Notes: generated by a model not told the origin, from the letters alone. 20,580 bases of DNA from an uncultured archaeon (GCA_964473825.1 CAYYQL010000042.1:1-20580); one strand, 5' to 3'; shown: positions 1 through 16,466, numbered from the stretch's first letter. Made by a program: numbers and translations.

Positions 1-150
1 TGCCCTCTCAAAGGTCTCGTCGAAGTCATCACCGCGAGGTCTCACACCACAGAGGCGGAGGATAGTCTCATCGAGGCGCTCGCCTGGAAGCCGCATCTTC
101 TCCAGCAACTGATAGACCTCTTCCGAGATCGAGATTGTCCGTGTGGTCAC
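1..150 (-). CDS. Archaeal VapB-type (DUF217-like, RHH) antitoxin, 3' end runs off the window
   Basis: Not in the ORF track. Manual translation from GTG at 150: MTTRTISISEEVYQLLEKMRLPGERLDETILRLCG..., matching the T-I-S-I-S-x-E-V-Y-x-x-L...GE...I-x-R-L pattern of archaeal VapB. TATA-like box upstream. Confidence 0.8.
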   Translation of the reverse strand, partial: MTTRTISISEEVYQLLEKMRLPGERLDETILRLCGVRPRGDDFDETFERA

Positions 151-185
151 TGAGGCCAGTCCTCAGTTTCTTATGGGCGCTGAGC

Positions 186-194
186 GATATAAAG
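186..194 (-). promoter_or_regulatory. Putative TATA box (CTTTATATC) of the vapB-like gene
   Basis: TTTATA on the minus strand about 40 nt upstream of GTG 150. Confidence 0.5.
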
Positions 195-1446: not shown

Positions 1447-2625
1447 TCACCACGCTATGGCCGTGGAAACCACCGCCCTGCATATCTTCGTGAGAAAATC
1501 AAAATCGAGCTTATCGATTGTGTCGGCTCTGGTGTGATAGAACGGATACCTGAACATGGCTGAGTCGGTCAAGAGTAACGCAGGAATGTTCTCTCTCCAG
1601 AATGGAGCATGATCAGACAATAAGAGTGGCCTCATCATATAGGCGGCCTGCTTATAGCTGAACTCCTCCTGAAGGCACGCATAAGGGAGCTCTATGGACT
1701 CCAACTCGCACTGCGTGCAGAATGCATCGGCCAAGCTCTCAGAGTTCTGGTCGCCAATGACAAAGAGAGAGTCGCCCACAGTCAATGTCTCGTCGGTCTT
1801 GAAGATCTTGAACATATCAGGTTCAAGGCCCTCGGGAAACTGCTGCGAGTGTTTCTTGCTGGAGGTATAGCCCATGGTTTCCAGACAGAGAACACCCCGC
1901 ACCGTGATTCCTCTCTGTCCTGCATCTCTGACCCATGAGTCACTCCCGACTAGCCCTGTTCTTCCCGGCCAGTTGGAAGTAGAGATATTGCCGCTCATCT
2001 CCTTGATGCCCTCGATGTATCGCAATTCACCCGAAGATAGCTCATCCTTCATGTCCCGAAGTGAAGCCTCAACGGCTTCGGCAAGGAGCGTGCCTCCTGA
2101 CCATTTCTCGTTGAGCATCTGGCTGAAACGCTGCATCCTCTCAGCGATGCCCCAAGATGTATAGCGGCCTGAGTCATCTCGGATTCCAGTCTCCCGGGCC
2201 AGCTCCTCTGCCTTATGACTGCGCGTGGGATTCATCTCCTCGAGATTGAAGCTAACGAAACGTATCGGTTGTGTCAGTTCTGCCTGTGCGATCACGCGGG
2301 CGGCCTCTAGCATGACGGCAATTGCACTGCCATTGTCATTGGCCCCAGGTGCGTGTCTGACCGTGTCGTAGTGCGAGGCAATGAGCAGCTCTGGCCCCTC
2401 AGGTGCCTCATTCCTGCCCTCAATGTTGCGAAAAGTGTAGTCGAATCCTTCCACGCTGAACTCATGGACGTCCAAAACCAAGCCATATCGCTCGAACTCC
2501 TCGCATATGTAATCGGCACATGCTTCCATCGCTTCAGGGCTGTGGAGAACGTTCTTCTCTCCCTCGGTTCGGAAAATATGGTCGTATATTCTCTCAACGT
2601 CAACCTGATTCACTAGCCCATTCAC
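1447..2625 (-). CDS. M28 family zinc peptidase
   Basis: Motifs SHYD, GANDNGSAIAVMLE, FNLEE, LETMGY, SDHAPF and YHTRADT. GAGGCGGAG RBS before the GTG. Confidence 0.9.
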   Translation of the reverse strand: MNGLVNQVDVERIYDHIFRTEGEKNVLHSPEAMEACADYICEEFERYGLVLDVHEFSVEGFDYTFRNIEGRNEAPEGPELLIASHYDTVRHAPGANDNGSAIAVMLEAARVIAQAELTQPIRFVSFNLEEMNPTRSHKAEELARETGIRDDSGRYTSWGIAERMQRFSQMLNEKWSGGTLLAEAVEASLRDMKDELSSGELRYIEGIKEMSGNISTSNWPGRTGLVGSDSWVRDAGQRGITVRGVLCLETMGYTSSKKHSQQFPEGLEPDMFKIFKTDETLTVGDSLFVIGDQNSESLADAFCTQCELESIELPYACLQEEFSYKQAAYMMRPLLLSDHAPFWRENIPALLLTDSAMFRYPFYHTRADTIDKLDFDFLTKICRAVVSTAIAW

Positions 2626-2659
2626 AATCTCCGCCTCAACAAGGGAGAGGGGCCGGGGC

Positions 2660-2667
2660 GATATAAG
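2660..2667 (-). promoter_or_regulatory. Putative TATA box for the M28 gene
   Basis: CTTATATC on the minus strand about 35-40 nt upstream of the start. Similar TTATAT boxes lie at 4358-4364 and 7832-7838, upstream of other cargo genes. Confidence 0.45.
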
Positions 2668-2686
2668 TCTCGTTAGACAGGTTCCT

Positions 2687-2911
2687 GTGGCGTCGGCGCC
2701 ATGTCTCCTAACACATTATCTCAACCACCGAAGGCTGAGAAAATCGTCCGAGGACGACCACAGATACGGAACAGCAGAATTCTCTGTGCTGGACTCTGTC
2801 GATGAAGTAATTGAGATCCTCGAATCCTATGTGGACATATGGCATGAGAGCTCTGCAGAGAAATTGCTGAGAAAGGCTCGACGATTGAGAAAGAAGACTG
2901 AGAAGACCTAG
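2687..2911 (+). pseudogene. 3'-end remnant of unknown gene X (at element copy 1)
   Basis: ...SVLDSVDEVIEILESYVDIWHESSAEKLLRKARRLRKKTEKT*, homologous to the remnants ending at 5918, 8007 and 11961. TAG abuts the repeat element. Confidence 0.7.
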
Positions 2912-2972
2912 TTTCCACTCGGCCTGTTTGATAATGCAATAAGAATAGGGTGGCTCGACAAGACGCAAAGGG
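2912..2972 (+). repeat. ~60-bp conserved element, copy 1
   Basis: TTTCCACTCGGCCTGTTTGATAATGCAATAAGAATAGGGTGGCTCGACAAGACGCAAAGGG. Confidence 0.9.
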
Positions 2973-2990
2973 CAGAGTCCCCTTTGTTTT
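2966..2990 (+). terminator. Possible terminator hairpin overlapping the end of copy 1
   Basis: CAAAGGG(2966-2972)-7 nt-CCCTTTG(2980-2986) followed by TTTT. Confidence 0.35.
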
Positions 2991-3193
2991 GATCATCCTT
3001 TATTGCTCAAGCTAGGGTTTTATGTTGGTTCGTCTTGTGGGGACTTTTCACACATTGGTTCAGATATGTGTGTATTCACGACAGGATGTTGAATCAAGTA
3101 TGTTTATATTGTACTGCAACACAGTACTGCATGTGGGGTATTCTTCACAAGGAGTATCACATAACTGTCCACCATTAGTTTCATAATTAATAG

Positions 3194-4333
3194 TCATACA
3201 CCCACTTTTTTTCTCAGTTCTTTAACTTTGTAGACTTCCACATCAAACCCATTTTCGAAGACTTCACAGATTCTCTTTGCATTGTGGCCCATATATACAA
3301 GAACGTCCCCATCTCCCACTAGCATACGGTCTTCTGGGCTATAGAACTTGACACAGCCTCCCTTAGAATTCGCGTACTTGACACAGGCATGATAGGGTTC
3401 CACACCCTGTCTGAATTCAGGTTTCTTCTTCATCAGTGCCTCTACTATGGCATCATCATTGGGCTCACCGAATACCTGTACCTCTTTGGCGAGAGTATCA
3501 ATCAACAGGAAGACAATGGGTCGTGCGATATAGGGAGATGTATCGACAAGCTGCGTATGGTTCCAACGATATTTTGAAAGGAGATTATCATCGAGAAACC
3601 TAACCTCGGTTTCGAAGTCATAATCCGCCCAGATTGCCTCCAAGTTTGAGGGTTCGAGTTTTCTTAGCTCGTGCTCATCTTGCGAGTATAGCTTGGCATT
3701 AGTCAAGAAGGCAAGATTATCAGCCAATGAAACGACCTCATTGCACTCATCCCCTCGGATATAGATTTTTGGAGTGCACCGGGAGAGGAGCTCGCTCCAT
3801 GCTCTGGTTTCTTTGCTCGCGAAATTGTCCAGCATTACAGTTGATTCCATCGGTTCGTCGTTGCGCATTCTCTCCCTTGAGTAACTCCATGCAGCCAAAT
3901 ATGAGAACATAGGTTCCAGAGTTCGTAGAAACTCTTGAGTAGCGATTCTTTCAGTGGAGCACCGATAACCCCCGACTTCTACGTGGGGGATTCTGGACGG
4001 GGGGAGGATAACATAGGAGATGAATATCTTGGAGATGTGGGACTCGAGATCTTGCACTAATTGATCAACAAACGGAATCGCCCTCCTCATTCCAAGAAGC
4101 CTCTTGAGATTTGTTGAGTCGCAACACGTAAGACAATCCTCTATGCCAAATGAATCAAACAGTCTTCCAACTGCGTCATGATACTGGCTAGTAAAAGATG
4201 ACACGTTCTCAACTCGTACGCCCACTCCGAGTGGGGTATAGAATTCTGAATAGGACGGAGTCTGATCATCCCTCCTTTTTCCTCTTGTGAAGCTCTTGGC
4301 ATCAAAAGCAAGCACGGTTTCGTCCATAGCCAC
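3194..4333 (-). CDS. Hypothetical protein, possibly RNase H-fold (DUF3800-like)
   Basis: Intact 379-aa ORF with acidic motifs VLAFDAK, VMLDNF and RGDECNEVVSLADNLA. The ORF is well supported; the fold is inference. Confidence 0.6.
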   Translation of the reverse strand: MAMDETVLAFDAKSFTRGKRRDDQTPSYSEFYTPLGVGVRVENVSSFTSQYHDAVGRLFDSFGIEDCLTCCDSTNLKRLLGMRRAIPFVDQLVQDLESHISKIFISYVILPPSRIPHVEVGGYRCSTERIATQEFLRTLEPMFSYLAAWSYSRERMRNDEPMESTVMLDNFASKETRAWSELLSRCTPKIYIRGDECNEVVSLADNLAFLTNAKLYSQDEHELRKLEPSNLEAIWADYDFETEVRFLDDNLLSKYRWNHTQLVDTSPYIARPIVFLLIDTLAKEVQVFGEPNDDAIVEALMKKKPEFRQGVEPYHACVKYANSKGGCVKFYSPEDRMLVGDGDVLVYMGHNAKRICEVFENGFDVEVYKVKELRKKVGV

Positions 4334-4467
4334 TCGTCAAGATATCCACATTTTGCCATATAAGCCCCTGCGTTTCAGATCCAGCTTCATTGGTCTAGAT
4401 AAGTCGGATTCCTGTGAGATTGCAGGATGTGTCCGTTTCTTGTAGCATTGAAGTCAATCACAGCAAA

Positions 4468-4528
4468 TTAACACCAATGTCGGATAACATTGTAATAAGA
4501 ATAGGGTGGCTCAACAAGACGCTAAGGG
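4468..4528 (+). repeat. ~60-bp conserved element, copy 2 (no gene X remnant)
   Basis: TTAACACCAATGTCGGATAACATTGTAATAAGAATAGGGTGGCTCAACAAGACGCTAAGGG. Confidence 0.85.
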
Positions 4529-4597
4529 AAATTCTCATCCAGCCTGTTCGCAGCCTCTCTTTTCGAGATACTCCAGAGCCCCCTATCATCCGGGACT

Positions 4598-5734
4598 CTA
4601 GGAGGTCTTCCTCATGTTTGATTCGGCCTCTGCTACAAGAGCATCCCACTCAGGTAGCGATCTTAGGCTATCGAAGTCCACGTTCTCCTTCATGCTTCCT
4701 ACATTGGACCATCCATGATCCAGTGCCATCCGAAGAAGCCCCAATGCCCGACTTATGTTGCCCAGGAGTGCATACGATCTTGCAGCCAAGGAGTAGACCC
4801 ATGCCTCGACCCCTCCTGTCTGGAGTGCCTCGTCAAAGATCTGTACGGCCGCCTCATGTTCCCCTCTTAGGAAGAATCTCAATCCAGCCTCAGCAATATG
4901 CATGGCCTCGACCCTATGACACTCGTATTGGAGATACCGCCGCTCAAGTTCGAAACCAACCTTCTCGGCCGTCTTCTGAGATGCCTCATTGTAGTCGTGC
5001 GTATGCCATCCAACTACTTCGAAACCCCTATCGAAGGCGAGGTCGATATTTGCAGCCGCTGTGACCGTGGCCAGTCCTCTTCTGCGGAACCGTTCAAGAG
5101 TCTGAATCCCAATCTCGCACTCATCTCCATGGACACAGTCTGCAAGACTATAGGATACAATACTGCTCTCATGAACGATACAGGTACCGAATCCGTGCTT
5201 CAGGTAGCTCTCTTTTGTTCCCCAGTTCATCTTGACCCAGAGTCTAAGATGGTCTGGAATCTCAAGAGCATCGTCTTCCAAGATATGCTCATCAAGTTGG
5301 TGAACACTAAAGCCCTCTGGTAGAAGGGGCCTCCAGTCCACTCTTACCTCTCTGCAGAGATAGTGCAATCTATTCACTTCGAGAGGGGGCCTGAGGGAGA
5401 ATATATCAGGAAAGCTTGAGATCCAGTCATCGCTGCTGATATCAAAGAGAAGGACTGCTTCGCTCTCCCAGTCCGCGTTTCCATGGCGAAGGTAGTCCTC
5501 AAACCACTTCTTAAGCCATGTATTGAACTGCTTGTTGGTCGGTTCCCCGGCAAGGAAGAATCCCTCAGAATTCACCATCCATCCGCAGGTGGGGGCCATC
5601 TCATCGTCAACATAGAGCCATCCCGGGTTTGTCCCGTCCAACATCGATTCAACTACCAACTGGTAGTGCAGGGGCTCAAACAGGGGTCTAGCCCGTTCAT
5701 ACTGGTCTTTCGGCAGTCTAATTTTCGGCGTCAT
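4598..5734 (-). CDS. GNAT family N-acetyltransferase with C-terminal TPR-like helices
   Basis: GFGTCIVHESSIVS, EIGIQTLERFRRRGLA (acetyl-CoA motif A) and NEASQKTAEKVGF. C-terminus YSLAARSYALLG...ALDHGW...DFDSLR is TPR-like. Confidence 0.88.
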   Translation of the reverse strand: MTPKIRLPKDQYERARPLFEPLHYQLVVESMLDGTNPGWLYVDDEMAPTCGWMVNSEGFFLAGEPTNKQFNTWLKKWFEDYLRHGNADWESEAVLLFDISSDDWISSFPDIFSLRPPLEVNRLHYLCREVRVDWRPLLPEGFSVHQLDEHILEDDALEIPDHLRLWVKMNWGTKESYLKHGFGTCIVHESSIVSYSLADCVHGDECEIGIQTLERFRRRGLATVTAAANIDLAFDRGFEVVGWHTHDYNEASQKTAEKVGFELERRYLQYECHRVEAMHIAEAGLRFFLRGEHEAAVQIFDEALQTGGVEAWVYSLAARSYALLGNISRALGLLRMALDHGWSNVGSMKENVDFDSLRSLPEWDALVAEAESNMRKTS

Positions 5735-5822
5735 CTTCGCTCCTCAGGTTCGGTCCGGAAACTCCCCTCCTCAATCTAACTCTTGTGTAGACAGCAAGAA
5801 CTGGAACCATGGGGGATAGCAT

Positions 5823-5918
5823 ATCCATGAGTGATATGAGGATACATGACATGAGAGCTCTGCCGGAGAACTGCTGGACGAGGCTCGACAGCTGCGTGAG
5901 AGAATCAGAGAGACCTAG
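5823..5918 (+). pseudogene. 3'-end remnant of gene X (at copy 3), with in-frame stops
   Basis: IHE*YEDT*HESSAGELLDEARQLRERIRET*. TGA at 5832 and 5847; the second replaces the TGG (Trp) seen at copies 1 and 5. Confidence 0.75.
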
Positions 5919-5979
5919 TTCACACTAGGCTGTGTTGAATATGCAATAGAATAGGGTGGCTCGACAAGACGCTAGGGGG
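5919..5979 (+). repeat. ~60-bp conserved element, copy 3
   Basis: TTCACACTAGGCTGTGTTGAATATGCAATAGAATAGGGTGGCTCGACAAGACGCTAGGGGG, nearly identical to copy 5. Confidence 0.9.
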
Positions 5980-6272
5980 CCAGGAGCCCACACTGCAGCC
6001 GGTTTCAGTGGAGTTGACACAGACACATAGAGGGTCCCTTATGTGTAAGCAACTCGAATAGATGATGGTGCTTCTGATGAGTACGAGAGAGAGACTGACC
6101 ATGATCTCGTCGGTCTTGAGGAGGGTAAACAGGTCCAGAATCCAATTGAGCTTGCGCTTCATGGAAAGAAGTTCACAAAGGTCAGTCTGGATGAGATAGA
6201 GAGGGTGAGCGCTCAACAGCGCACGAGGATGAGGTTTTTTTTTTCTTTCATAACGCGGGGTAACCTCTCTCC

Positions 6273-7793
6273 TCAGCTGAAGATGGATGAAAACTTAGTC
6301 TGTAGATACTTCAGATATGGTTTGCACGACATCTCTTTGCCTGTGACTCTCTTCATGAGATCTGGCGCATCATAGAGTCGCCCCTTCTTGTGGATGTTTT
6401 CAGACATCCAACTGACAATATCGGAGATGTCACCATTGGCAATCTGGTCCCTCCAATCGGACATCTGCTTTGACATGGCCTCTGCTAACTGTGCCGAAAA
6501 TATTTTTCCTAGTACAAACATCGGAAAATAACCATAGTAACCACGTCCCCACTGCACGTCTTGCAGTGCACCTTCGCCGTCGTCATTCACTGTCACTCCA
6601 AGGTACTCCTCATAGAGCTCATTCCAGACGGATGGTATATCGGAGATCTCGATCTTGTTATCGAAGAGATCTTTCTCAATCTCAAATCGAATGATGATAT
6701 GAGAAGTATATGTTAACTCATCGGCGGTAACACGGATGGGGCTGGGTCGTACTCGGTTTACGGCTCTTGCAAACTCATCCGCACTTATGTCCTTGAACTG
6801 CCCGTCTGTGGTCTCGTTCAGAATAGGCAAGAAGTATCGGATGAACTCGGGCGACTTTCCAACCATGTTTTCAAGAAACCTTGACTGTGACTCATGGATT
6901 GAGAACCCTGGTGGGTTCCCCACGAGCTGATATTGCCATTCTCTATTTAGATTCAGATTATATTGTGCATGGCCAGATTCGTGAATGAAAGCAGAACAGG
7001 CTTGAAAGAAATTCTTCTCCTCGAATTGCAGCCCGATTCGTACGTCATCATATCTACCAAATACCATGCCAGGATGCACACACTCGGCTATATGCCCGAT
7101 AGCCTTCTCTGACTTGAGGTCATAACCTACAAATTCTGCAAGTCGCTCAATCAACTGAATTTGGGTGGCCTTCTCTACGGACCTATTTAGAAAGTCAGTG
7201 TTTTCCTCCTGCGAGATGTTGGCATATTTCTCAACCATAGAATTCAGAGGTGCTTTCAACTCATCAAAGACTTTAGTGATGTGTTCTGTCCTCATTCCCA
7301 TTTCGAAGTGGTCTATACAGACATCATATAGGTCAGATACACCCACAATGTCCTGAATACACTGGTTGTATTCGAGCATCAGGTCATACATCTTCTCGAA
7401 CTCAGGTTCAAAAATAGACCAGTCATTCTTGGCCAGGGCCTTCTCCCGTGCATTATTCGTTATAGTCCGCTGCCTACCCCATTGCCGAACCAAGTCTTCT
7501 GGAACCTGAGTGTCCATGTCATATTCTCTTCTCATGAGAAAGACGTTGCGTTTCTGAACCTTCGTCAGCGTTTTGCAAACTGATTTCTTCTCAACGGCAT
7601 CGAGAAGCCGACCGACCCCCTTGTCTGTTCCCATGCGGTGCCATAGGGATCCAAGGAGGACATTCTGTTCAGCTCTTTGTGACACAGCCCCCGGTGGCAA
7701 GAAGGTGTAGGTATCCCAACCCAGGGTCCCCATAACCGACTCAAGGATGGCGATCTCTCTATGCTTCTCAAGTAGTCTCTCATATGCCTCCAT
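6273..7793 (-). CDS. M32 family (Taq/Pfu-type) carboxypeptidase
   Basis: HESGH (HExxH), HESQS, IRVTADELTY..HIIIRFEIE, LQDVQW and GYFP. ATG 7793 preferred over the upstream TTG 7808. Confidence 0.92.
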   Translation of the reverse strand: MEAYERLLEKHREIAILESVMGTLGWDTYTFLPPGAVSQRAEQNVLLGSLWHRMGTDKGVGRLLDAVEKKSVCKTLTKVQKRNVFLMRREYDMDTQVPEDLVRQWGRQRTITNNAREKALAKNDWSIFEPEFEKMYDLMLEYNQCIQDIVGVSDLYDVCIDHFEMGMRTEHITKVFDELKAPLNSMVEKYANISQEENTDFLNRSVEKATQIQLIERLAEFVGYDLKSEKAIGHIAECVHPGMVFGRYDDVRIGLQFEEKNFFQACSAFIHESGHAQYNLNLNREWQYQLVGNPPGFSIHESQSRFLENMVGKSPEFIRYFLPILNETTDGQFKDISADEFARAVNRVRPSPIRVTADELTYTSHIIIRFEIEKDLFDNKIEISDIPSVWNELYEEYLGVTVNDDGEGALQDVQWGRGYYGYFPMFVLGKIFSAQLAEAMSKQMSDWRDQIANGDISDIVSWMSENIHKKGRLYDAPDLMKRVTGKEMSCKPYLKYLQTKFSSIFS

Positions 7794-7875
7794 CACCAAA
7801 CACTCCAAAGAGCAAAACGCTCGGCTATCTAGATATAACCATGTCTAATTAATGTGGCGGACCTCAATAGAATAG

Positions 7876-8007
7876 TATGATGTCGCTGGGCGCCTTGACG
7901 AAACTATCGAAATCTTAGTGAACTATGGCAAGGAACACAACGATAAGTCAGCTCTTGTTCGAGCGGATGAGGTCCGTGAATTGAAGAAATCGTACGAAGA
8001 TACCTAG
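7876..8007 (+). pseudogene. 3'-end remnant of gene X (at copy 4, most diverged)
   Basis: YDVAGRLDETIEILVNYGKEHNDKSALVRADEVRELKKSYEDT* aligns with DEVIEILESY...RRLRKKTEKT*, and ends with the same ACC TAG. Confidence 0.65.
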
Positions 8008-8070
8008 TGTCCACTCCTCTTGGATTGAGATGTGAAAATTGTTAGGTGCTCAACAGCGTGAGCGTAAGGG
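8008..8070 (+). repeat. ~60-bp conserved element, copy 4 (diverged)
   Basis: TGTCCACTCCTCTTGGATTGAGATGTGAAAATTGTTAGGTGCTCAACAGCGTGAGCGTAAGGG. Retains TCCACTC, TAGG-TG-CTCAACA and terminal AAGGG at similar spacing. Confidence 0.65.
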
Positions 8071-8318
8071 AGATCGAGGATAACGGGGATGACAGGGAGA
8101 AACTTGAGGTCAGACTGAACTCTCTCAGAGAGTTGCCGAACGAAACTCGGTCAGAGAAGGGGATGGGGCCTAAGCTCTCATCGAACTGGCACGGCGTGAC
8201 ATCGAAGATGGAACCGTCCCTTCAGCACGGGAACCCCCATTGCACCGACCTCCGTCAAGAACCCCAACTCAAACCATCTCTGTGAGAGAAAGCAGCATAG
8301 ATGACAGTCTGAATACCA

Positions 8319-8927
8319 TTAAGACTGGTCGCTAGATTCAATTGCTCTGTGCTGTGCAAATAGGTGGACGCTGAATGATATGATAGTGGATATGGCGGAG
8401 ATCAGTGGTCCGTTTCCTACAGAAATGGCGGCATTTTCAGCAAACAAGAACGCTCCATCTATTGGAAGACTATCAATCTGACCATGAATGACAAACACGA
8501 ATGGAGTGTAATAGCAGATGGCAAGGACGCAAGCAACGAGAGAAGCTATAGAACCACCTAATACTATCAGATTTGTAATATGTTCTCCTTTGTGTTCTTT
8601 GGTGAGTGATGCTACTAGTAGTAAGGCCATTACTCCTGAAACTAGAGGGAAAAGACCAAACCAATAGTCGCTTGATGCTGAAGAAAACTGGTCACCGGCC
8701 CATACGGTAACTGACGCTGAGGACGAATTAAGTGAACCAAATCCAAAGCCACAAGTATACCCCGAAACAGCATGAGTTCCAATAAGAGGGTGCTCAAATT
8801 CACCCGTAAATATGATCCAAGGTTCGAAGACACCCCAGATTGTGAACAGCGAGGCGATGATAACAATGAGTCTTGGGGTGTCTAACCTCAAGTGGATTTC
8901 CTGATTGGTTGGGAGTAGATTGAGCAT
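8319..8927 (-). CDS. Hypothetical membrane protein (about 4 TM segments)
   Basis: ORF 8319..8978 with four hydrophobic segments. ATG 8927 is the likely start. Confidence 0.65.
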   Translation of the reverse strand: MLNLLPTNQEIHLRLDTPRLIVIIASLFTIWGVFEPWIIFTGEFEHPLIGTHAVSGYTCGFGFGSLNSSSASVTVWAGDQFSSASSDYWFGLFPLVSGVMALLLVASLTKEHKGEHITNLIVLGGSIASLVACVLAICYYTPFVFVIHGQIDSLPIDGAFLFAENAAISVGNGPLISAISTIISFSVHLFAQHRAIESSDQS

Positions 8928-9233
8928 AATGAATCTTTCGCGATATGTTCTCTGTGAAAAGCCAATCAGGGAATACACGGATGTTTTGTCAGTCTGGCAT
9001 CATAACGCATGATGTGATTGCTCAATTGATAAACTGGCACCATCTGGACATATTGGAAGGATTGCAATTATTTGAAACCCGGTCGAGCTGGGTAGTGAGC
9101 TTCAAGGCATTATCTGCAATAGTAGACAGCATGAAAGAAGGAGATGAGTGTGATGTCTTGAGTATGCATTCTCAACCGAACAATGGGCCAGTTCCTGATG
9201 ACAATGAGAGAGATGTGTTGCAATCCGGTGGAG

Positions 9234-9258
9234 TTATTAGGGATAAAAGCCCTAATAA
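9234..9258. promoter_or_regulatory. Perfect 9-bp inverted repeat, putative AbiEi operator
   Basis: TTATTAGGG-ATAAAAG-CCCTAATAA immediately upstream of ATG 9269/9278. AbiEi antitoxins are known to autorepress via promoter inverted repeats. Confidence 0.6.
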
Positions 9259-9268
9259 TCGTGCCGAG

Positions 9269-10150
9269 ATGTTGCAAATGACCCAGTTGGACAGAGCATA
9301 TGACGAGATGCTCATACGAGAGGTTGTGACCCTTGCTGATGCGAAAGAAATCATTGAAAAAATTTCAAATCGTGCGATATCTAGAAGAGCTGTGGTCCAA
9401 GAATATCTAACACCTCTCATCGACCGTGGGAGAATGGAGCGTGTCAGACGCGGACTCTATGTGATTGGAGTGCCTGAAGCAAGTGGCGAGCTGATGTTCT
9501 CAACCTCTCAAGGCATGAAGAAGCAGAGTCCGGACAAATTCTTGATAGGTGCCAAGATCCGGGAGAGAGGTTTCCTAAGTCACCATACTGCACTGGAGGT
9601 GCATGGTGCAAGCCAGACCTTTGGTTGGGGGACTGTATATGTCAGCGTTTCAAGAAAGAAGAGGTTCCGATCCTTCGAATATCGTGGGATTCTGTACACA
9701 CCTGTGTCAACAAAGGACCCATCCACAGGAATCTCGAAGGTCAAACATCGTGGGCAAGAGATCCTGGTAAGCACACCAGAGCGAACCTTCATAGATTGCT
9801 TGGAGAGAGTTGATCTAGGGGGAGGATGGGAGGAGGTCTTAAAGGGGGTCTCTCAACTCCGACTGAGGGACTCTGCAGTCCTTGTGAAGCTGTTGGAGGA
9901 GCGGAGGAACCAGACACTTATTCGAAGGGTTGGAATCATGCTTGATCGTTTCAACGAGGCGATCTCCAACTACATCTACATGTCTGACTTTGAAAAGGTC
10001 CGTGCACGACTCCAAGCACTTCTTAAGGGACGCTCTCTGTACATCGACAGAGGGCTAAAGGATATGACCAATGCAGAGATGACCCATGACAGGGAATGGC
10101 GTGTCTATTACCCTCGCAACTTCTGGGAGAATTATGAGAGAGGCGTGTAG
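9269..10150 (+). CDS. abiEi: Type IV TA antitoxin, AbiEi family (wHTH + AbiEi C-terminal domain)
   Basis: RVRRGLY (wHTH wing), FLSHHTALEVHG and STPERTFIDCL. Ends 2 nt before the AbiEii-like gene. True start is likely ATG 9269 or 9278 rather than 8945. Confidence 0.85.
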   Translation: MLQMTQLDRAYDEMLIREVVTLADAKEIIEKISNRAISRRAVVQEYLTPLIDRGRMERVRRGLYVIGVPEASGELMFSTSQGMKKQSPDKFLIGAKIRERGFLSHHTALEVHGASQTFGWGTVYVSVSRKKRFRSFEYRGILYTPVSTKDPSTGISKVKHRGQEILVSTPERTFIDCLERVDLGGGWEEVLKGVSQLRLRDSAVLVKLLEERRNQTLIRRVGIMLDRFNEAISNYIYMSDFEKVRARLQALLKGRSLYIDRGLKDMTNAEMTHDREWRVYYPRNFWENYERGV

Positions 10151-10152
10151 GA

Positions 10153-11235
10153 ATGACTGGGTGGAAGGATCCTGAATCGGTCCATAACGAAACCCGGCAG
10201 AGCGAGGATGTCTCAGAGCTACTCGATGCGCGAACCATCGAGCAGGTTCGCCGTCAAGTCAACGTACTGGAGGAGATATATGCTAATGCCTACTTGTGTG
10301 AGCGCTTGGTTCTGGGTGGCGCGAGTGCTCTCTTGTATGTGCACTTCGAATCTGCGCCTCGAATAGTGACTCATCTTTCATCAGGCATACAGATGATGGC
10401 CATTCCTAGGGTCACGGCAGATGTCGATGCGGACTATCACTTCCCCAACCTTGACCTTTCCTATGAGGAGGACAGGAAGAAGACCGAGAGTGTGTTGAGG
10501 AGCATCCTTGAACGACACGGCGTTCTGCAGATTCGAAAGAATGAGAGGTCGCTCAACCTTGATGTTCAATACAAGGGAGAAGAGGTTCAACAAGGTACGT
10601 TCAAGGTGGAAATCAACTTCATGCGCCGATATCCGGTCCTTGGATATATCGAGGGGGCCTTCAAGGACCCTGTATCCGACAGGACCTTCTTGGTGAAGAC
10701 CTATCCTAAGGAACAGGCATTCGCGAACAAATGGAGGACGATGATCTCGAGGAACAAGCCCTCAGATATCTTCGATGTGTATCATATCTCCCAAGCTGAC
10801 TGTGATAGGCAGAGGTTCATGCGCTGTGCCGTACTTGAGTGCATGCTTGAGCTTCAGCCTCGTGGAAGCCCGAATCCATGGGGCGGTGATGTGCTTCATA
10901 GAGTCCTTGGACTTGATGTCGCTGAGAATATCAAGACTACCTTCGGCCTATCCCATAGGCCCAAGGTCTACAAAGGAACGTTTTCGGTCGAGGACCTCAA
11001 GTCGATGAGGAAACCCGTGATAGAGTTCAGTCAAGGAATCCTTTCCGAGATGACAGAAGCCGATGAGGCGGCTATAGAGAGGTTCTTCACTGATAACGCC
11101 TCATCACCGCGGATGTTGGTCGCAGAGGTCCTTGGGATGATAGATCCCAACAATATCTTTGACCAGAAGGTATACGAGCATCCGCAGCTCTACGACCAGA
11201 TAGAACGACGACGGTTGAATTCCGAGGGCACATAA
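10153..11235 (+). CDS. abiEii: Type IV TA toxin, AbiEii/AbiGii nucleotidyltransferase
   Basis: LVLGGASAL, PRVTADVDAD (DxD), KVEINF and ANKWRTMISRNKPSDIFDVY. Confidence 0.85.
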   Translation: MTGWKDPESVHNETRQSEDVSELLDARTIEQVRRQVNVLEEIYANAYLCERLVLGGASALLYVHFESAPRIVTHLSSGIQMMAIPRVTADVDADYHFPNLDLSYEEDRKKTESVLRSILERHGVLQIRKNERSLNLDVQYKGEEVQQGTFKVEINFMRRYPVLGYIEGAFKDPVSDRTFLVKTYPKEQAFANKWRTMISRNKPSDIFDVYHISQADCDRQRFMRCAVLECMLELQPRGSPNPWGGDVLHRVLGLDVAENIKTTFGLSHRPKVYKGTFSVEDLKSMRKPVIEFSQGILSEMTEADEAAIERFFTDNASSPRMLVAEVLGMIDPNNIFDQKVYEHPQLYDQIERRRLNSEGT

Positions 11236-11357
11236 ACCACTCATCAGTCAGACTATGATGAACCTTGAGTGAACAAGTTACCACACCTAGCCACGAAGAG
11301 AACCAGGAGACCGATGGGGCCCCAGATTATATCGAGAGAATCTATGGCACAAGCCCT

Positions 11358-11837
11358 CTAACTCACGACACCGATGGCAAACTGCGCTCTGCGAGCATCC
11401 AGCGAGTCTTCGAGTTGCTTGAGGAAACCACTCTTTCCACCAATACTGGTTGAGGCAGCCTTGGCCTCAATCACGATCTTCAGAGGGTTCTGCAAGCTCT
11501 TCTCATTCACCTCGATGAGAAGGTCACCAACCTTCCTGCCGCCAACCTTCTTCTTCCCAATTATCTCGATGTTGTCGCCCGGCTTCGAGCAGATGGGTTG
11601 CAGGAAGTCATGGAACTCCTCCTCGAACTCCACACCCTTCCTCGTGCCCACCTCTGCCTCCTCGGCGCGTTCGGCCTCCTTCATCACAGTGTCACGCAGT
11701 TCCTGGATCTCGCTCTTCAGGTCATGGCGCAGGTCCCAGAAGGGACTCCCCTCGGAATAGGGGTCAAGAACTGACCGAAGCGGGCTGTCGATGTCAGAGA
11801 ACGCCCGTTGCAGCACCCCTCTCTCCGAGACCGACAT
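11358..11837 (-). pseudogene. Internal fragment of a DUF2130/RmuC-like PD-(D/E)xK protein
   Basis: Coiled coil followed by KGVEFEE...GDLLIE...IVIEAK...AQFAIGV. Appears truncated at both ends; the 5' side abuts a gene X remnant. Confidence 0.6.
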
Positions 11838-11859
11838 CGTGAGCCTGCTCTCTGCTGGC

Positions 11860-11961
11860 GAGATAATCTTCGAACGGTATGTTGCACGATGGCAGGAAGA
11901 CTCGGCTCGAGAACTGCTGGACGAGGCTCGAGAACTGAGAACGAAGACGGAGAAGACCTAG
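11860..11961 (+). pseudogene. 3'-end remnant of gene X (at copy 5)
   Basis: EIIFERYVARWQEDSARELLDEARELRTKTEKT*. Confidence 0.75.
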
Positions 11962-12021
11962 TTGACACTAGGCTGTGTTGAATATGGAATAGAATAGGGT
12001 GGCTCGACAAGAAGCAAGGGG
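11962..12021 (+). repeat. ~60-bp conserved element, copy 5
   Basis: TTGACACTAGGCTGTGTTGAATATGGAATAGAATAGGGTGGCTCGACAAGAAGCAAGGGG. Confidence 0.9.
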
Positions 12022-12050
12022 TAGAAAGCAGGCTAAACGATGCACTTGAG

Positions 12051-13118
12051 CTACGATGTCTTGCTCCACAACCACCGGGCAATCTTAGAAACCCAATCGG
12101 GAGTTAGTTCCTGTCCAAAATACTGGATATATCCGACCAGCCTGTTCGGTCGCATGATCTTGACATAGCGAGGCTTGGATTTCGGCCACGCGCCTGTCAC
12201 CGAAATGATGCTTCTCACCTTGAACTTCCGCAGGCTCCAGCGGAACTTCCGTATCTTTACCTTCGGCCCACCGAACTTGCGTTGGATGGCAACAAAGAGC
12301 CCACGTCCAGCGCGGCGCGTCTGCTGAATGGGAGAGTACAGGCTATTATTGTCAAGCGACTCCTTGCTCCAGTACTTGGACTCGATATTGAAGACACCCG
12401 AGGGGCCAACCACCACATGGTCAATCTGGCAGGACACGATGGGACCGAACTCCGTTGACACGGGCGGTTTGAGTCGGACGTTTACATCATTGATCACATG
12501 GTAGCTGTCAGGGAGCTCCCTCAGAGCATCGAGGGTCTTGCGCTCACCCAGGGCGCCGACCCGCCACGATGCAAGGTCAGACAGGGCCCTGTCAATCCGG
12601 CGCTTTCTCTCGTGTTCATCAGCCAGTCGCTTCGCCACTTCCTCGTCGGAGTTGGACTCGAGATATTCGGTCCGGCTTGCAAGTCGCTCAATCTCAGTAT
12701 AGAGGTCTTTGAATGGCTTGGCCACCTCATCAAAGAAGTGATCCTCAAGCCTTCTCTTTCGTCGCTGCTTCAGATAACGAGAGAGCCGCCTGTATATCCA
12801 GAGGAATGGGTTTCGAGTTGGTTCAGGAGATACAGAGAATTCCTTAACGAGCTGACTGTGCTCCTCCTTCAGCTCGAGGGTACGTTGCTGACGGAGCTGA
12901 TCGCGCTGCTGGATGGCTCCCTCGCTCTGTCTATGGAGGTGTTCAATCTCCCTGCGAATGGCCTGCCGGGTCTCATCTTCCTTTCGAGCGATAATGCCGT
13001 CTGACTCTGTGATGTGCAACTCCACATCACTAAGGGAGTTGATCCCCTTGATACCTCGTTTTCGAAGATTCTGGACAAGAACCCTTTCGGAGCCGGGAAC
13101 ACCGTGTACTCGAGCCAC
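12051..13118 (-). CDS. NERD (nuclease-related domain) protein with N-terminal coiled coil
   Basis: GALGE...LPDSYHVINDV...QIDHVVVGPSGVFNIESK. GTG 13118 is preceded by GGGAG. Confidence 0.88.
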   Translation of the reverse strand: MARVHGVPGSERVLVQNLRKRGIKGINSLSDVELHITESDGIIARKEDETRQAIRREIEHLHRQSEGAIQQRDQLRQQRTLELKEEHSQLVKEFSVSPEPTRNPFLWIYRRLSRYLKQRRKRRLEDHFFDEVAKPFKDLYTEIERLASRTEYLESNSDEEVAKRLADEHERKRRIDRALSDLASWRVGALGERKTLDALRELPDSYHVINDVNVRLKPPVSTEFGPIVSCQIDHVVVGPSGVFNIESKYWSKESLDNNSLYSPIQQTRRAGRGLFVAIQRKFGGPKVKIRKFRWSLRKFKVRSIISVTGAWPKSKPRYVKIMRPNRLVGYIQYFGQELTPDWVSKIARWLWSKTS

Positions 13119-13345
13119 CTGTGAAACTCCCTTCGATAGGGTACGCTGCAAATCTCCGCTTATTTGTTTCGTATAGAGAGAAAATCAATCCACTAACGGC
13201 ATTGAGTGAGAATAGTCGTCTGTTGACGATGGATTAAAGAGGGCCTTCTGTGAAGGGTCTAGACGGAGATAGAGATAACAAGTATATCGTGGAGTCTATA
13301 TTCTCTACTACGGAACTAATCTCAGATGACAAAGGAGGCATTGAG

Positions 13346-13855
13346 TTGGGTTTTGAGAAAAGATTCAGACTTCGGAAGTTTCTTGATTTCCTCGGCGAAG
13401 ATATTAGTATGGATACTCTGAGCCAGAGAATCGAGTTCCAGAAAATGACGTACCTCTTACAAGCCTTCGATGTTGACATCTGGTATCCTTTCAACTGGTA
13501 TCTACATGGCCCCTATTCGACTCAACTAGCAGATGATGGTTTTGCTCTTGCTAGCATGGATTCGTCCAAATTGGACAAACTCGCTGAGCCCTACAGTATA
13601 GAGGAGAACAGAGAGAATCTTGAGAGGATGAGAGAGTTTCTCCAACATCTGAGAGAGATAACCCCTGGACTCAAGGATTACGAGCGATTCGAGTTGGCTG
13701 CCTCACTACATTTCTTAGCTAGACGAACTCTACGAGACAGAGGGAACTGCAAAAAGATAGTAGAACGACTTCGACAGCGGAAGCCGGAATTTCGTCTGGA
13801 ACAAGCCACTAGGGTCTGCAGGTTGATGAGTGAAGTAGGCCTCATCCGTCCATAG
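13346..13855 (+). CDS. YwgA/SocA (DUF4065, Panacea)-like protein
   Basis: FQKMTYLLQ...YPFNWYLHGPYSTQL...ELAASLHFL. GGAGG lies 7 nt before in-frame TTG 13346 (the ORF track starts at 13250). Confidence 0.75.
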   Translation: MGFEKRFRLRKFLDFLGEDISMDTLSQRIEFQKMTYLLQAFDVDIWYPFNWYLHGPYSTQLADDGFALASMDSSKLDKLAEPYSIEENRENLERMREFLQHLREITPGLKDYERFELAASLHFLARRTLRDRGNCKKIVERLRQRKPEFRLEQATRVCRLMSEVGLIRP

Positions 13856-13889
13856 TCCCTTAGACAATAGTGCGAGGGTTGTAAATTCT

Positions 13890-15119
13890 TTGAAGAAAAT
13901 CTACGACCCAATCCACGGCTACATCACTTTGGATGCAGAGGAACTGGCAGTCGTTGATTCACTTCCTTTTCAACGACTTCATCGGATTCATCAAAACGGA
14001 CCAGCCTACTTGGTCTATCCTACCGCTCAGCATACCCGCTTTTCGCACTCACTGGGTGTGTATCAGGTCATGGATACCTTTGCCAACAAGCTCGCCGAAC
14101 GAGGAGCAATCAATGGTGACGAGCAAAGAGTCCTCAAATTGGCGGCATTGCTACACGACATAGGACACTTCCCTTTCTCTCACATGATAAGGAAATGGGA
14201 ATCGAAAAAAGGGAGGTTCCTCTCGCATGAAGAAATGGCTGAGAGAATAATCGAACAGCCTGAGCTTCGTTCTGTGATCAAGAAGCCCGAAGACAGAGAA
14301 AAGATAGCACAGGCTATCGCAGGAGAAATCGATAACCCCACCTTCGCTTATCTCATGTCATCAGACATCGATGTGGACAGAATTGATTATCTTCTCAGAG
14401 ATGCATACCATACGGGTGTGACTTACGGTGGCATCGACCTCAACCGGATTGCGGAGACAATGGACTATGATGACGAAGGATTGTGTTTCCAAGAAAAGGG
14501 GATTACCGCAGTCGAGAACTTCCTCTTGGCCCGATATCACATGTATGAAGCAATCTACAATCACAAGACTGTGGTTGCATTTCGATTGCTGTTAGAGAGA
14601 ATCCATCAGATGCTTGTCGAGAAGGAGGATGTCTATGATGGAGATGCGGTTCAGAGTCTCGACTCCAATGAATGGAACAGCTACACCGATGGGTACCTCT
14701 TCCATCAGATGAAGGATGCCTGCAAAGGAGCTACAATCCTCTCTGAGATGATTGAGGACTTCTTCCACAGAAGACCCTTGAAGCTGGCGGGCTCGGCCAT
14801 GGTATATGACAGGGAAGAGCCAGATGACCGCTATACTGGCTTGCAGGACCTCAGTGCGCCTCAGGAACGACAAGACTTCAGTACCTCAGTCGGCGTTGAC
14901 CCAGAATGGGTCTTCTATGAAGAGTTGAGTAATGAGTTTGTCAAGTTTGAGGAACAGACCAATCCTGTCCGGATCAAGATGAATTCCGGCGATATCGTCA
15001 ACTTAGTCGAATTCCGACCTCACTTCTCGCGCATCGCAAAGAAGGAGATAAGGGTCTACACCAGGAGTAATCACAAGAAAATAGTCAGAGAAGAGCTTGA
15101 GAAGCTCTACGGGATCTAA
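13890..15119 (+). CDS. HD-domain phosphohydrolase (COG1078/YwfO, SAMHD1-like dNTP triphosphohydrolase family)
   Basis: DPIHGYI, FQRLHRIHQ, HTRFSHSLG, AALLHDIGHFPFSH, DVDRIDYLLRD and MYEAIYNHK. Confidence 0.9.
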   Translation: MKKIYDPIHGYITLDAEELAVVDSLPFQRLHRIHQNGPAYLVYPTAQHTRFSHSLGVYQVMDTFANKLAERGAINGDEQRVLKLAALLHDIGHFPFSHMIRKWESKKGRFLSHEEMAERIIEQPELRSVIKKPEDREKIAQAIAGEIDNPTFAYLMSSDIDVDRIDYLLRDAYHTGVTYGGIDLNRIAETMDYDDEGLCFQEKGITAVENFLLARYHMYEAIYNHKTVVAFRLLLERIHQMLVEKEDVYDGDAVQSLDSNEWNSYTDGYLFHQMKDACKGATILSEMIEDFFHRRPLKLAGSAMVYDREEPDDRYTGLQDLSAPQERQDFSTSVGVDPEWVFYEELSNEFVKFEEQTNPVRIKMNSGDIVNLVEFRPHFSRIAKKEIRVYTRSNHKKIVREELEKLYGI

Positions 15120-16383: not shown

Positions 16384-16466
16384 ATACGTTTCCTTTATGT
16401 GCCTAGTGCAGCTCGTTCCTACAGAGTGTCCTTGTTAAATCAAGAGAATCGCCAGTATCATACGCC

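What the first reader, a model, noticed from the sequence alone, without database searches (positions are those of the whole stretch)
2687..12021. Integron-like cassette array punctuated by a ~60-bp site: candidate undescribed archaeal gene-capture platform
Seen: five co-oriented copies of a 60-63 bp element (2912, 4468, 5919, 8008, 11962). Four share AGAATAGGGTGGCTCRACAAGA with a single variable base. The first three intervals each hold one intact minus-strand gene (hypothetical, GNAT-TPR, M32). The fourth holds a membrane gene, the AbiE TA pair and a truncated nuclease. The non-coding core is better conserved than the adjacent coding remnants, suggesting a site under selection. Inference: this is a recombination/attachment site at which DNA segments are added iteratively, analogous to integron attC arrays or Xer/dif accretion, but lacking attC R-boxes and the bacterial or Thermococcales dif consensus. 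A TA module inside the array parallels the TA cassettes that stabilise superintegrons. No recombinase is in the window, so one would have to act in trans or lie outside.
Basis: partly seen in the sequence, partly recalled or inferred. Interest (0 to 1): 0.9.

Follow-up and report, generated by a model that had tools for sequence, protein, structure and literature searches.

The report
Gene stack behind displaced 16S-rRNA trailers
The repeated 60-bp "site" is a left-over copy of the short stretch that follows the 16S ribosomal RNA gene (one strand of the stem used to cut the rRNA out of its precursor) plus the last codons of a giant neighbouring gene, and a row of such copies with different accessory genes between them shows that this Asgard archaeon and its relatives keep adding genes, some from other genera, next to the 16S gene with no integrase in sight.

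Summary
The window holds eight units, not five. It joins contig C75 through a 55-nt overlap, which gives ten co-oriented units. The only other copies in the genome are on one small contig (C48).

The "site" is not a dedicated attachment site. In a congener, the same sequence is the 134-nt spacer between the 16S rRNA gene and a convergent gene of about 1,720 aa. Its conserved core is the 3' strand of the pre-16S processing stem. It pairs with this genome's own 16S leader and covaries with the leader between genera. The "coding remnants" are tails of the giant gene and evolved under purifying selection.

Co-oriented stacks of this trailer occur in at least nine genera of the family. On five contiguous contigs they lie downstream of the 16S gene, and many copies keep its last 10-45 nt.

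Cargo differs between congeners, and indels end inside the copies. The M32 cassette is 90% identical to one in another genus, against a 71% baseline. No integrase lies in any array examined, and two genomes with arrays show no tyrosine recombinase hit. The copies do not fold like attC, and their ends are ragged.

Most likely this is an integrase-free stack built by host recombination anchored on the 16S end. The scan noted similar stacks on other DNA, including one behind 23S rRNA.

The parts
1..55 (.). Assembly overlap with contig C75 (reverse complement). The array continues leftwards into C75, which holds two more units at C75 1617-1561 and 629-561.
   Evidence: 100% identity over 55 nt, contig end to contig end.
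252..329 (+). Unit c0: a degenerate trailer copy with no tail codons left. It is orthologous to the G001:C57 copy at 1602-1675.
   Evidence: nhmmer E 4e-16. C42 2-327 matches L015 1350-1672 at 82%.
2780..2996 (+). Unit c1: the last ~40 codons of the giant gene (in frame, stop at 2909-2911), the spacer, the trailer core (2942-2963) and the trailer hairpin.
   Evidence: Pairs with G000's own 16S leader: dG -54.8, z -4.6, 0 of 200 shuffles.
4454..4529 (+). Unit c2: spacer and trailer core only, with no tail codons.
   Evidence: nhmmer E 5e-15. Alignments.
5823..6000 (+). Unit c3: a tail remnant (22 codons in frame, stops further up) plus the trailer core.
   Evidence: 91% identical to the C75 copy at 1649-1561.
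6195..6243 (+). Unit c3b: a degenerate trailer copy of the G003 (other genus) type. It forms the left border of the M32 cassette.
   Evidence: Shares GCTCAACAGCGCAC with the L042 copy at 6991-7059. Homology to G003:C29 starts at 6244.
6244..8071 (.). M32 cassette: the M32 carboxypeptidase gene (6273-7808, minus strand), a 43-codon giant-gene tail of G003 type (7876-8007) and trailer unit c4 (7995-8071).
   Evidence: 90.4% nt identity over 1829 nt to G003:C29 3459-5286. The baseline between these two genera is 71% nt.
8111..8264 (+). Unit c4b: a trailer-only fragment (8230-8264) that lacks the core. A possible tail piece precedes it (8111-8227).
   Evidence: blastn-short at 93.5% to the L015 trailer, E 6.5e-8. 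The tail piece is only E 0.3.
8319..11837 (.). Cargo between c4b and c5: a 219-aa ORF (minus), AbiEi (8945-10150, +), AbiEii (10153-11235, +) and a DUF2130-like fragment (11358-11837, minus).
   Evidence: Pfam.
11803..12023 (+). Unit c5: a deletion derivative of a giant gene (aa 1468-1492 fused to aa 1691-1721 at an 'ER' microhomology), the spacer and the trailer core.
   Evidence: tblastn at 96% and 74% to P0001. Pairs with the G000 16S leader: z -3.5, 0 of 200 shuffles.
1447..5734 (-). Single-gene cargo: M28 peptidase (1447-2625), a hypothetical 379-aa gene (3194-4333) and GNAT-TPR (4598-5734). All are antisense to the tails, which is the orientation of the 16S gene in relatives.
   Evidence: Pfam. 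Not found at nucleotide level in congeners G001 and G002.
12988..16385 (.). Block shared with congener G002 in the same relative position: NERD C-terminal part, a DarG-like 201-aa gene, an HD gene and a Nudix_N-PLD gene.
   Evidence: 92.8% over 3.4 kb to L013 13386-9993. Pfam and PADLOC.

Best explanation
The 60-bp element is a displaced copy of the spacer between two convergent genes: the 16S rRNA gene and a gene of about 1,720 aa with a nuclease-like domain. Its invariant core is the 3' strand of the outer helix of the pre-16S processing stem, followed by a T-rich run. It is conserved because each copy once served as the working trailer of a 16S gene in some lineage. It is not conserved because a recombinase reads it.

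The array is a stack of old junctions. DNA from relatives, including other genera, is recombined in beside the 16S gene. The highly conserved 16S end, the trailer or an existing copy supplies the homology. The other end is joined illegitimately, in the manner of homology-facilitated illegitimate recombination or Campbell-type insertion. The resident trailer and giant-gene tail are pushed outward. Redundant giant-gene copies are then whittled down by microhomology deletions. Ordinary homologous recombination between copies later deletes, moves and re-inserts cassettes.

Shown here: what the element is, the family-wide stacks behind 16S, the variable cargo, one inter-genus cassette, crossovers inside the core, ragged copy ends, and the lack of integrases.

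Inferred: the recombination pathway, the direction of growth, and the physical link of this contig to the 16S gene in G000.
For: 1. In G002:C10 the element lies 73 nt past the 16S 3' end and directly after the stop codon of an intact 1,721-aa ORF.

2. Leader and trailer form a helix of about 60 nt that includes the core. The cofold gain is -20.2 in G002 against -8.3 +/- 3.3 for shuffles, and -27.4 in G003 against -9.9 +/- 3.5. The change GGCTCGACAG/TGTCGAGCC to TGCTCAACAG/CTGTTGAGCA is compensatory.

3. G000's own 16S leader, at the end of contig C30, pairs with window copies c1 and c5 better than with any of 200 shuffles. It does not pair with the foreign-type copies c4 and c3b.

4. The motif ACTGYYGAGC(C)ACCCT follows the 16S gene in the family loci where a trailer was available, and with a variant in G002 and in two others. 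It occurs in 2-7 clustered, co-oriented copies in at least 9 genera, while the reversed-pattern control gives 0-1. On five contiguous contigs all extra copies lie downstream of 16S on the same strand, and many keep the last 10-45 nt of 16S.

5. Tail remnants differ with dN/dS of 0.14-0.5 and pS up to 0.69, so they diverged while they were working gene ends.

6. Units c5, C75a and G002 copy D are deletion derivatives of whole giant genes, with microhomology at the joints.

7. Cargo differs between congeners. G001 and G002 differ by one 766-nt cassette bounded by copies, and the crossover falls within the identical 33-nt core. The C75b copy is a hybrid of two G001 copies.

8. The M32 cassette is 90.4% identical in nucleotides to one in another genus. 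The baseline for a syntenic ortholog is 71% nt, and the giant orthologs share 42% aa.

9. There is no recombinase domain in the array contigs. PF00589 gives one hit in G000 and none in G010 or G043. PF00239 gives none in G000 or G043.

10. In G004 a unit next to 16S has displaced an intact giant gene, and that displaced unit keeps 25 nt of the 16S end.
Against: - Only the first ~380 nt of the 16S gene are assembled in G000 (end of contig C30); its 3' end and trailer are missing. The link from the right end of C42 to the giant gene and 16S rests on a single 50-nt match to G002:C28.
- Some 16S-side boundaries recur (-43, -36 and -10 nt), and two G010 units share one junction although their upstream cargo differs. 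This hints at preferred break points.
- Cassettes are tight single genes, and 9 of 11 are oriented like the 16S gene. The model does not predict either feature.
- Preservation does not fall off steadily along the array, so growth is not strictly at the 16S-proximal end.
- Two nuclease-type genes (a RecB/Cas4-like giant gene and a TnpB/Cas12f-like gene) sit beside the 16S end in most genera. They could be more than bystanders.
Confidence: 0.6

Rival explanations
1. A targeted nuclease starts the events. Candidates are the TnpB/Cas12f-like gene or the RecB/Cas4-like giant gene that sit beside the 16S end, or the LAGLIDADG endonuclease of the 16S intron. The nuclease would cut 16S or the trailer in alleles that lack its own element. 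Repair from a donor would then copy in the element and whatever lies beside it, which stacks the old trailers.
For: - The giant gene has an invariant E..D..ExK motif and a confident model. Its 11 best structural matches are all Cas4/AddB/RecB/RecE-type nucleases, with Z 5.3-7.9.
- Its divergent neighbour carries a Cas12f1-like TNB domain, E 1e-10 to 3e-13.
- The pair lies next to 16S in G002, G003, G004 and G005.
- The 16S gene of G002 holds a LAGLIDADG ORF.
- Some break points recur.
Against: - G010 has a seven-copy stack without giant-gene tails, and its giant ortholog lies 113 kb from 16S.
- There are no TnpB-like remnants in C42, C75 or C48.
- The paralogous giant/TnpB-like modules next to tRNA genes show no flanking tRNA repeats.
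- G000 has no free-standing LAGLIDADG gene.
- No guide RNA or cut site was identified.
Confidence: 0.15
2. This is true site-specific cassette capture, working like an integron. An unrecognised recombinase, or the single Xer-like tyrosine recombinase acting in trans, exchanges strands within the conserved core.
For: - Both inferred crossovers fall within the 33-40-nt core.
- Cassettes are short, and many hold a single gene.
- The M32 cassette is bordered by unit edges in two genera.
- G000 has one PF00589 gene, on contig C1.
Against: - There is no attC-like fold: ssDNA z-scores run from -1.2 to +0.9.
- Copy ends are ragged on both sides, from 45 nt inside 16S to about 100 nt into the trailer, and from 0 to 140 tail codons.
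- One unit lacks the core altogether.
- G010 and G043 have stacks but no PF00589 hit, and G043 also has no PF00239 hit.
- The core's conservation is already explained by rRNA processing.
Confidence: 0.1
3. The copies are kept because they work where they now sit. They might act as terminators, promoters or RNA-processing signals for the cargo genes, or as decoys for the 16S leader.
For: - Each copy lies 70-280 nt upstream of a cargo gene in that gene's orientation.
- The core is followed by a T-rich run.
- One partial copy behind the SDH-protease gene is orthologous in two genera.
Against: - Several copies are degenerate or truncated (c0, c2, c3b, c4b).
- Foreign-type copies do not pair with the host leader.
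- There is no Rfam match.
- No expression data were available.
Confidence: 0.05
4. The array is an assembly or binning artefact of a mixed population.
For: - G000 is a genome of 103 contigs with 4.4% contamination.
- Contigs break at the repeats, and many family assemblies end just after the 16S gene.
Against: - Copies within one contig differ by 15-40%, so they are not collapsed repeats.
- The same architecture recurs in independent genomes of many genera, partly with syntenic cargo.
Confidence: 0.03

Closest known systems
Integrons, including those reported in Archaea (Ghaly et al. 2022, PMC9668308)
   Same: A row of co-oriented short repeats separates mostly single-gene cassettes. Toxin-antitoxin cassettes occur in the row. 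Cargo varies between strains, and cassettes are shared across lineages.
   Different: There is no IntI and no attI. The repeats do not fold like attC and have ragged ends. The repeat is a displaced piece of host sequence (the 16S trailer plus a gene tail) whose conservation comes from rRNA processing.
Genomic islands in tandem at tRNA/tmRNA gene 3' ends, and SCC composite islands at the rlmH 3' end (own knowledge)
   Same: The direct repeats are copies of the 3' part of a conserved gene. Successive insertions stack up, and inner elements decay and lose their mobility genes.
   Different: The anchor is the 16S rRNA 3' end and trailer. No tyrosine or serine recombinase is found in or beside any array examined. 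The repeat boundaries are not fixed.
Homology-facilitated illegitimate recombination and Campbell-type single-crossover insertion (de Vries and Wackernagel 2002, own knowledge; the term is used in PMC3410848)
   Same: One homologous anchor is combined with one illegitimate joint, which adds foreign DNA and leaves a displaced copy of the anchor's flank. No dedicated recombinase is needed.
   Different: These are known from laboratory transformation of bacteria. Here the process is only inferred, in Asgard archaea, and has been repeated many times at one natural locus.
Sequential 3'-end displacement arrays at rhs, cdiA and T6SS effector loci
   Same: Old gene ends that evolved under selection are displaced downstream and stacked. 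Homologous recombination on the conserved part drives the process.
   Different: In those arrays the variable part is the gene's own toxic tip and its immunity gene. Here the stacked piece is a conserved RNA-processing element plus a neighbour's tail, and the cargo is unrelated genes.
Archaeal pre-rRNA processing stems (Juttner et al. 2020, PMC7038931)
   Same: Leader and trailer of the 16S gene pair into a long helix. The core of the element is one strand of that helix.
   Different: Displaced, partnerless copies of the trailer strand scattered through a gene stack have not been described, as far as my searches show.
Aloposons of Heimdallarchaeum (Wu et al. 2022, PMC8813620)
   Same: An Asgard giant gene has an RNA gene immediately downstream.
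   Different: Aloposons carry tandem genes of 3,000-6,000 aa and integrate at tRNA genes. The 1,720-aa gene here is unrelated in size and partners, and it is not needed for the stacks (G010).

Membership tests
Integron (IntI plus attC cassette array) | An IntI-type tyrosine recombinase gene next to the array | tested here: not met
   No PF00589 domain in the ORFs of C42, C75, C48, L013 or L014. The only PF00589 hit in G000 is on contig C1. There is none in G010 or G043, which also have arrays.
Integron (IntI plus attC cassette array) | attC: an imperfect palindrome that folds as a single-stranded hairpin (R''/L'' paired with L'/R') | tested here: not met
   ssDNA folds of five copies, on both strands: z-scores from -1.2 to +0.9 against shuffles, and no long hairpin.
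Integron (IntI plus attC cassette array) | Precise cassette boundaries at a fixed position in the repeat | tested here: not met
   Boundaries differ between copies on both sides. The c4 copy in C42 is 16 nt shorter than its G003 counterpart.
Xer/dif accretion (IMEX-like) | A dif-like 28-bp site with two inverted Xer-binding arms in each repeat | tested here: inconclusive
   No inverted arms were seen by eye or in the folds. No archaeal dif model was available to scan with.
RNA-gene 3'-end genomic islands (tRNA/tmRNA type) | The direct repeats are copies of the 3' part of a stable-RNA gene | tested here: met
   The repeats are the 16S trailer. In relatives they include the last 10-45 nt of 16S. 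The window copies keep trailer sequence only.
RNA-gene 3'-end genomic islands (tRNA/tmRNA type) | An integrase encoded at the island end next to the RNA gene | tested here: not met
Pre-16S rRNA processing stem (trailer strand) | Extended complementarity to the 16S 5' leader | tested here: met
   (c1 z -4.6 and c5 z -3.5 against G000's own leader).
Pre-16S rRNA processing stem (trailer strand) | Compensatory changes between lineages | tested here: met
   Leader and trailer differ in step between G002 and G003. This rests on only two lineages.
Pre-16S rRNA processing stem (trailer strand) | A bulge-helix-bulge motif cut by EndA | not tested
   No motif search or RNA-end data.
Recombination-scar (displaced gene-end) array built by host recombination | The copies diverged as functional gene ends, not by decay after an in-place duplication | tested here: met
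   dN/dS 0.14-0.5 with pS up to 0.69. The c4 type matches the lineage of another genus.
Recombination-scar (displaced gene-end) array built by host recombination | Indels between relatives end inside the copies, and hybrid copies exist | tested here: met
   The 766-nt cassette that differs between G001 and G002, and the hybrid copies L013 18342-18267 and C75 629-561.
Recombination-scar (displaced gene-end) array built by host recombination | Direct observation of the recombination pathway | not testable with these tools

The most novel reading that the evidence does not exclude
The stacks are not passive scars. They would be the product of a dedicated, undescribed capture system of Asgard archaea. 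In this reading a nuclease module kept beside the 16S gene (the RecB/Cas4-like giant protein with its TnpB/Cas12f-like partner, or another targeted nuclease) cuts the trailer of the rRNA precursor gene and drives the repeated copying-in of foreign cassettes. The most conserved gene of the cell would then serve as a universal landing pad for gene transfer between genera.
Probability: 0.1. Interest if true: 0.9.

Novelty: new variant of a known kind. Interest (0 to 1): 0.6.

Why it matters
The result turns an apparent new att site into something more explicable and still unusual. The 3' flank of the 16S rRNA gene appears to be the growth point of a fast-changing gene stack across a whole family of Thorarchaeota.

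The 16S gene is 87-93% identical between genera whose ordinary genes are about 70% identical. That gives foreign DNA a ready homology anchor. It fits the cassette that is 90% identical across genera, and cargo such as toxin-antitoxin pairs, defence genes, peptidases and, in one relative, MerA/MerB.

If this holds, it shows a route of gene gain in Asgard archaea that needs no integrase. It would also explain why so many of these assemblies break right after the 16S gene. It also warns against reading repeat conservation as evidence of a recombinase site.

Tried and rejected
- **tRNA or known RNA family in the window:** none found.
- **attC-like hairpin:** none.
- **Free-standing homing endonuclease in the first slot:** the LAGLIDADG ORF of G002 lies inside the 16S gene, so it is an rRNA-intron ORF. 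The adjacent '94-aa ORF' is antisense 16S sequence. G000 has only an intein-type LAGLIDADG.
- **A sharp common right boundary after ..AAGGG:** I first read it that way. A wider alignment showed that many copies run further into a more variable trailer.
- **The giant gene as the anchor of the array:** rejected. In G002 and G003 the array lies upstream of the intact gene, and the G010 stack has no giant-gene tails.
- **Giant/TnpB-like paralogs as elements integrated at tRNA genes:** no flanking tRNA repeats.
- **Paralogs next to 23S rRNA:** not so.
- **AGGAGGTGATCC at 20241 as a 16S-end fragment:** more likely a ribosome-binding site.
- **C42's right end carrying the C-terminus of the TnpB-like gene:** no hit.
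- **Annotation of the giant protein:** nothing from Pfam, NCBIfam, PADLOC, the protein atlas or Foldseek on PDB.
- **Literature:** my searches found no description of rRNA-trailer stacks.

Full report
**1. The observation**

The five reported copies are real. A profile built from the copies finds them at 2899-2975, 4454-4529, 5906-5979, 7995-8064 and 11950-12023, all on the + strand. The 22-mer core occurs four times against none expected. Three further units were missed:
- a degenerate copy at 252-329;
- a foreign-type copy at about 6195-6243;
- a trailer-only fragment at 8230-8264 that lacks the core.

The window is a whole contig (C42) of a 3.27-Mb genome in 103 contigs. Its first 55 nt are the reverse complement of the start of contig C75, which carries two more co-oriented copies. 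The array therefore has at least ten units. The only other copies in the genome are on the small contig C48.

**2. What the repeat is**

Upstream of each 60-bp element lies a + strand coding remnant of the form ..ILERYV..W.E.SA.ELLDEAR.LR....T*. Its substitutions fit that reading frame.

A search of relatives found the same sequence in congener G002, at the end of an intact 1,721-aa ORF. Rfam showed that the DNA just beyond it is the 3' end of the 16S rRNA gene, on the opposite strand. The 16S gene spans L014 7413 to about 9775 and carries a LAGLIDADG intron ORF. The giant gene stops at 9909, and the element is at 9848-9922. The element is therefore the spacer between two convergent genes, and most of it is the 16S 3' trailer.

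Folding the 16S leader with the trailer gives a helix of about 60 nt that includes the core. This holds in G002 and in G003, a different genus, and both are well beyond shuffled controls. The core differs between the two genera by changes that are matched in the leader.

G000's own 16S promoter, leader and first ~380 nt lie at the end of contig C30, next to the same M1 peptidase gene as in G002 and G003. That leader pairs with window copies c1 and c5 better than with any of 200 shuffles. It does not pair with c4 or c3b, which carry the G003-type core.

Across the family, the 16S trailer ends in ACTGYYGAGC(C)ACCCT followed by a T-rich run. This explains why the non-coding core is better conserved than the coding remnants: in its native place it is one strand of the pre-rRNA processing stem (for such stems see PMC7038931).

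**3. The phenomenon is family-wide and tied to the 16S gene**

The 15-nt trailer motif occurs in two to seven clustered, co-oriented copies in at least nine genera. The reversed pattern gives zero or one hit.

Where 16S and extra copies share a contig (G004:C2, G005:C9, G043:C113, G049:C18, G013:C2), every extra copy lies downstream of 16S on the same strand. Many displaced copies keep the last 10 to 45 nt of the 16S gene itself. G002 copy D keeps about 45 nt.

In G002, contig C28 overlaps the end of C10 by 55 identical nt. The order there is:
- 16S, trailer, intact giant gene;
- about 15 kb with a restriction-modification system;
- copy D, then the HD/PLD block shared with the window;
- copies C, B and A.

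G003 and G004 show the same logic. Many family assemblies end within a few hundred nt after 16S, as expected if repeats start there.

**4. Evidence for turnover and transfer**

G001 and G002 are 98-99.5% identical across the array end, except for one 766-nt cassette. It is bounded by two copies, and the G002 copy is a hybrid whose switch point lies in the identical 33-nt core. C75 copy b is likewise a hybrid of two G001 copies.

The M28, hypothetical, GNAT-TPR, M32 and AbiE cassettes of the window are not found at nucleotide level in the congeners, but the HD/PLD block is syntenic at 92.8%.

The M32 cassette (6244-8071: the gene, a 43-codon tail and the trailer) is 90.4% identical to G003:C29. 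It is bordered there too by trailer copies. By comparison, the syntenic M1 peptidase of the two genera is 71% identical, and the giant orthologs share only 42% aa. G000 also has a second, distant M32 gene.

Tail remnants differ with dN/dS of 0.14-0.5 and synonymous differences up to 0.69. They therefore diverged as working gene ends in different lineages, not by decay in place. Several remnants are internal-deletion derivatives of whole giant genes with microhomology at the joint.

**5. Against a dedicated recombination site**

- The copies do not fold as attC-like hairpins.
- Their ends are ragged. On the 16S side they range from 45 nt inside 16S to about 100 nt into the trailer. On the tail side they range from 0 to about 140 codons.
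- One unit lacks the core.
- No recombinase domain is found in any array contig I annotated.
- G000 has one PF00589 gene elsewhere and no PF00239 gene. G010 (97% complete, seven copies) and G043 (99% complete) have no PF00589 hit, and G043 also has no PF00239 hit.

**6. Most likely mechanism**

Host recombination uses the highly conserved 16S end, the trailer or an existing copy as its homology anchor. The second joint is illegitimate. The old trailer and tail are displaced, redundant giant-gene copies are deleted, and later homologous recombination between copies shuffles the cassettes. The pathway itself is inferred, not observed, and the read-level test was unavailable.

Four points do not fit neatly:
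- some boundaries recur, and one junction is shared by two G010 units;
- cassettes are tight single genes, and 9 of 11 are oriented like 16S;
- preservation does not grade along the array;
- two nuclease-type genes sit beside the 16S end.

**7. The neighbouring genes**

The giant protein belongs to a small family: 117 clusters among 1.84 billion representatives, all 1,500-2,300 aa when full-length. It has an invariant E..D..ExK motif. A confident model of that domain has 11 best matches that are all Cas4/AddB/RecB/RecE-type nucleases, at modest Z of 5.3-7.9.

Its divergent neighbour is TnpB/Cas12f-like. Such pairs occur four to six times per genome, and some lie beside tRNA genes. I found no flanking tRNA repeats there. 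The G010 stack exists without giant-gene tails. I therefore treat a nuclease-driven mechanism as a rival at about 0.15, and a dedicated capture system as the most novel reading not excluded, at about 0.1.

**8. Comparison and verdict**

The array works somewhat like an integron or a tandem tRNA-gene island, but it fails the defining tests of both: there is no integrase, no attC and no fixed boundaries. It fits the class of displaced gene-end arrays built by homologous and illegitimate recombination.

The new variant here is the anchor, which is the 16S rRNA trailer of Asgard archaea. My literature searches found archaeal integrons (PMC9668308) and aloposons (PMC8813620), but nothing on rRNA-trailer stacks. 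Earlier notes of this scan report similar integrase-free stacks behind other genes in this genome, and behind 23S rRNA in another Thorarchaeote. I used them as leads only.

Noticed in passing
L014 9909-15074 (G002:C10). Paralogs in G000 at C6 80727-84857, C2 69898-74115 and C26 28754-33031.: A lineage-restricted family of proteins of about 1,500-2,300 aa (117 clusters among 1.84 billion representatives). It has an invariant E..D..ExK motif and a RecB/Cas4-like modelled domain. There are 4-6 paralogs per genome and no Pfam, NCBIfam or PADLOC match.
   Followed up: partly
L016 5637-7475, L075 13975-15741, L076 8692-10434. In G000: C6 85129-88654, C2 about 67573-67959, C26 about 26422-26712.: Each giant gene is paired divergently with a TnpB/Cas12f-like gene of 560-612 aa (Cas12f1-like TNB domain). 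Paralogous pairs lie beside tRNA genes, and the orthologous pair lies beside the 16S gene. No guide RNA was sought.
   Followed up: partly
L014 8352-9032 and about 9690-9760 (G002 16S gene). A similar short insert is seen in G003, G004, G043 and G049.: The 16S gene of G002 carries a LAGLIDADG intron ORF. Several family members have an insert of about 30 nt just before the ATCACCTCCT end of 16S, and this insert is also present in some displaced copies.
   Followed up: no
Window 345-535 and 15276-15435; C75 698-890; C48 11869-11976 and 14103-14508; L013 10945-11091, 13716-13803 and 17293-17484; L015 2458-2649.: A second repeat family of 65-190 nt that is confined to these array contigs in three genomes. 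It contains the hairpin AGATGGACAAAGCTGGCCATCT. It is present in C75 where the orthologous G001 stretch lacks it. Its nature is unknown.
   Followed up: partly
Window 12051-20161: A run of defence-type genes to the right of the last copy: NERD, a 201-aa DarG-like protein (PADLOC 8.5e-8), HD, Nudix_N-PLD, HNH, and a DUF4411/PIN gene with an IrrE-HTH partner. The DUF4411/IrrE pair also occurs in the G002 array, at another position and in the opposite orientation.
   Followed up: partly
L075 4540-6954 (G004:C2): The slot directly behind the 16S gene of G004 holds a MerA-like reductase (HMA plus Pyr_redox_2, 568 aa) and MerB (186 aa). This is an example of clearly adaptive cargo in such a stack.
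   Followed up: no
G000 contigs C5 50600-78573, C3 50035-56357 and C10 2328-20666: Other chains of local direct repeats of 100-330 nt at 75-95% identity.
   Followed up: no
C75 1-514 with window 1-250: A Fic/DOC toxin gene (C75 224-514) and a VapB-like antitoxin-type ORF that spans the contig joint form the cassette between units C75b and c0. A Fic cassette (40% aa identity) also sits between two units in G003:C29.
   Followed up: partly
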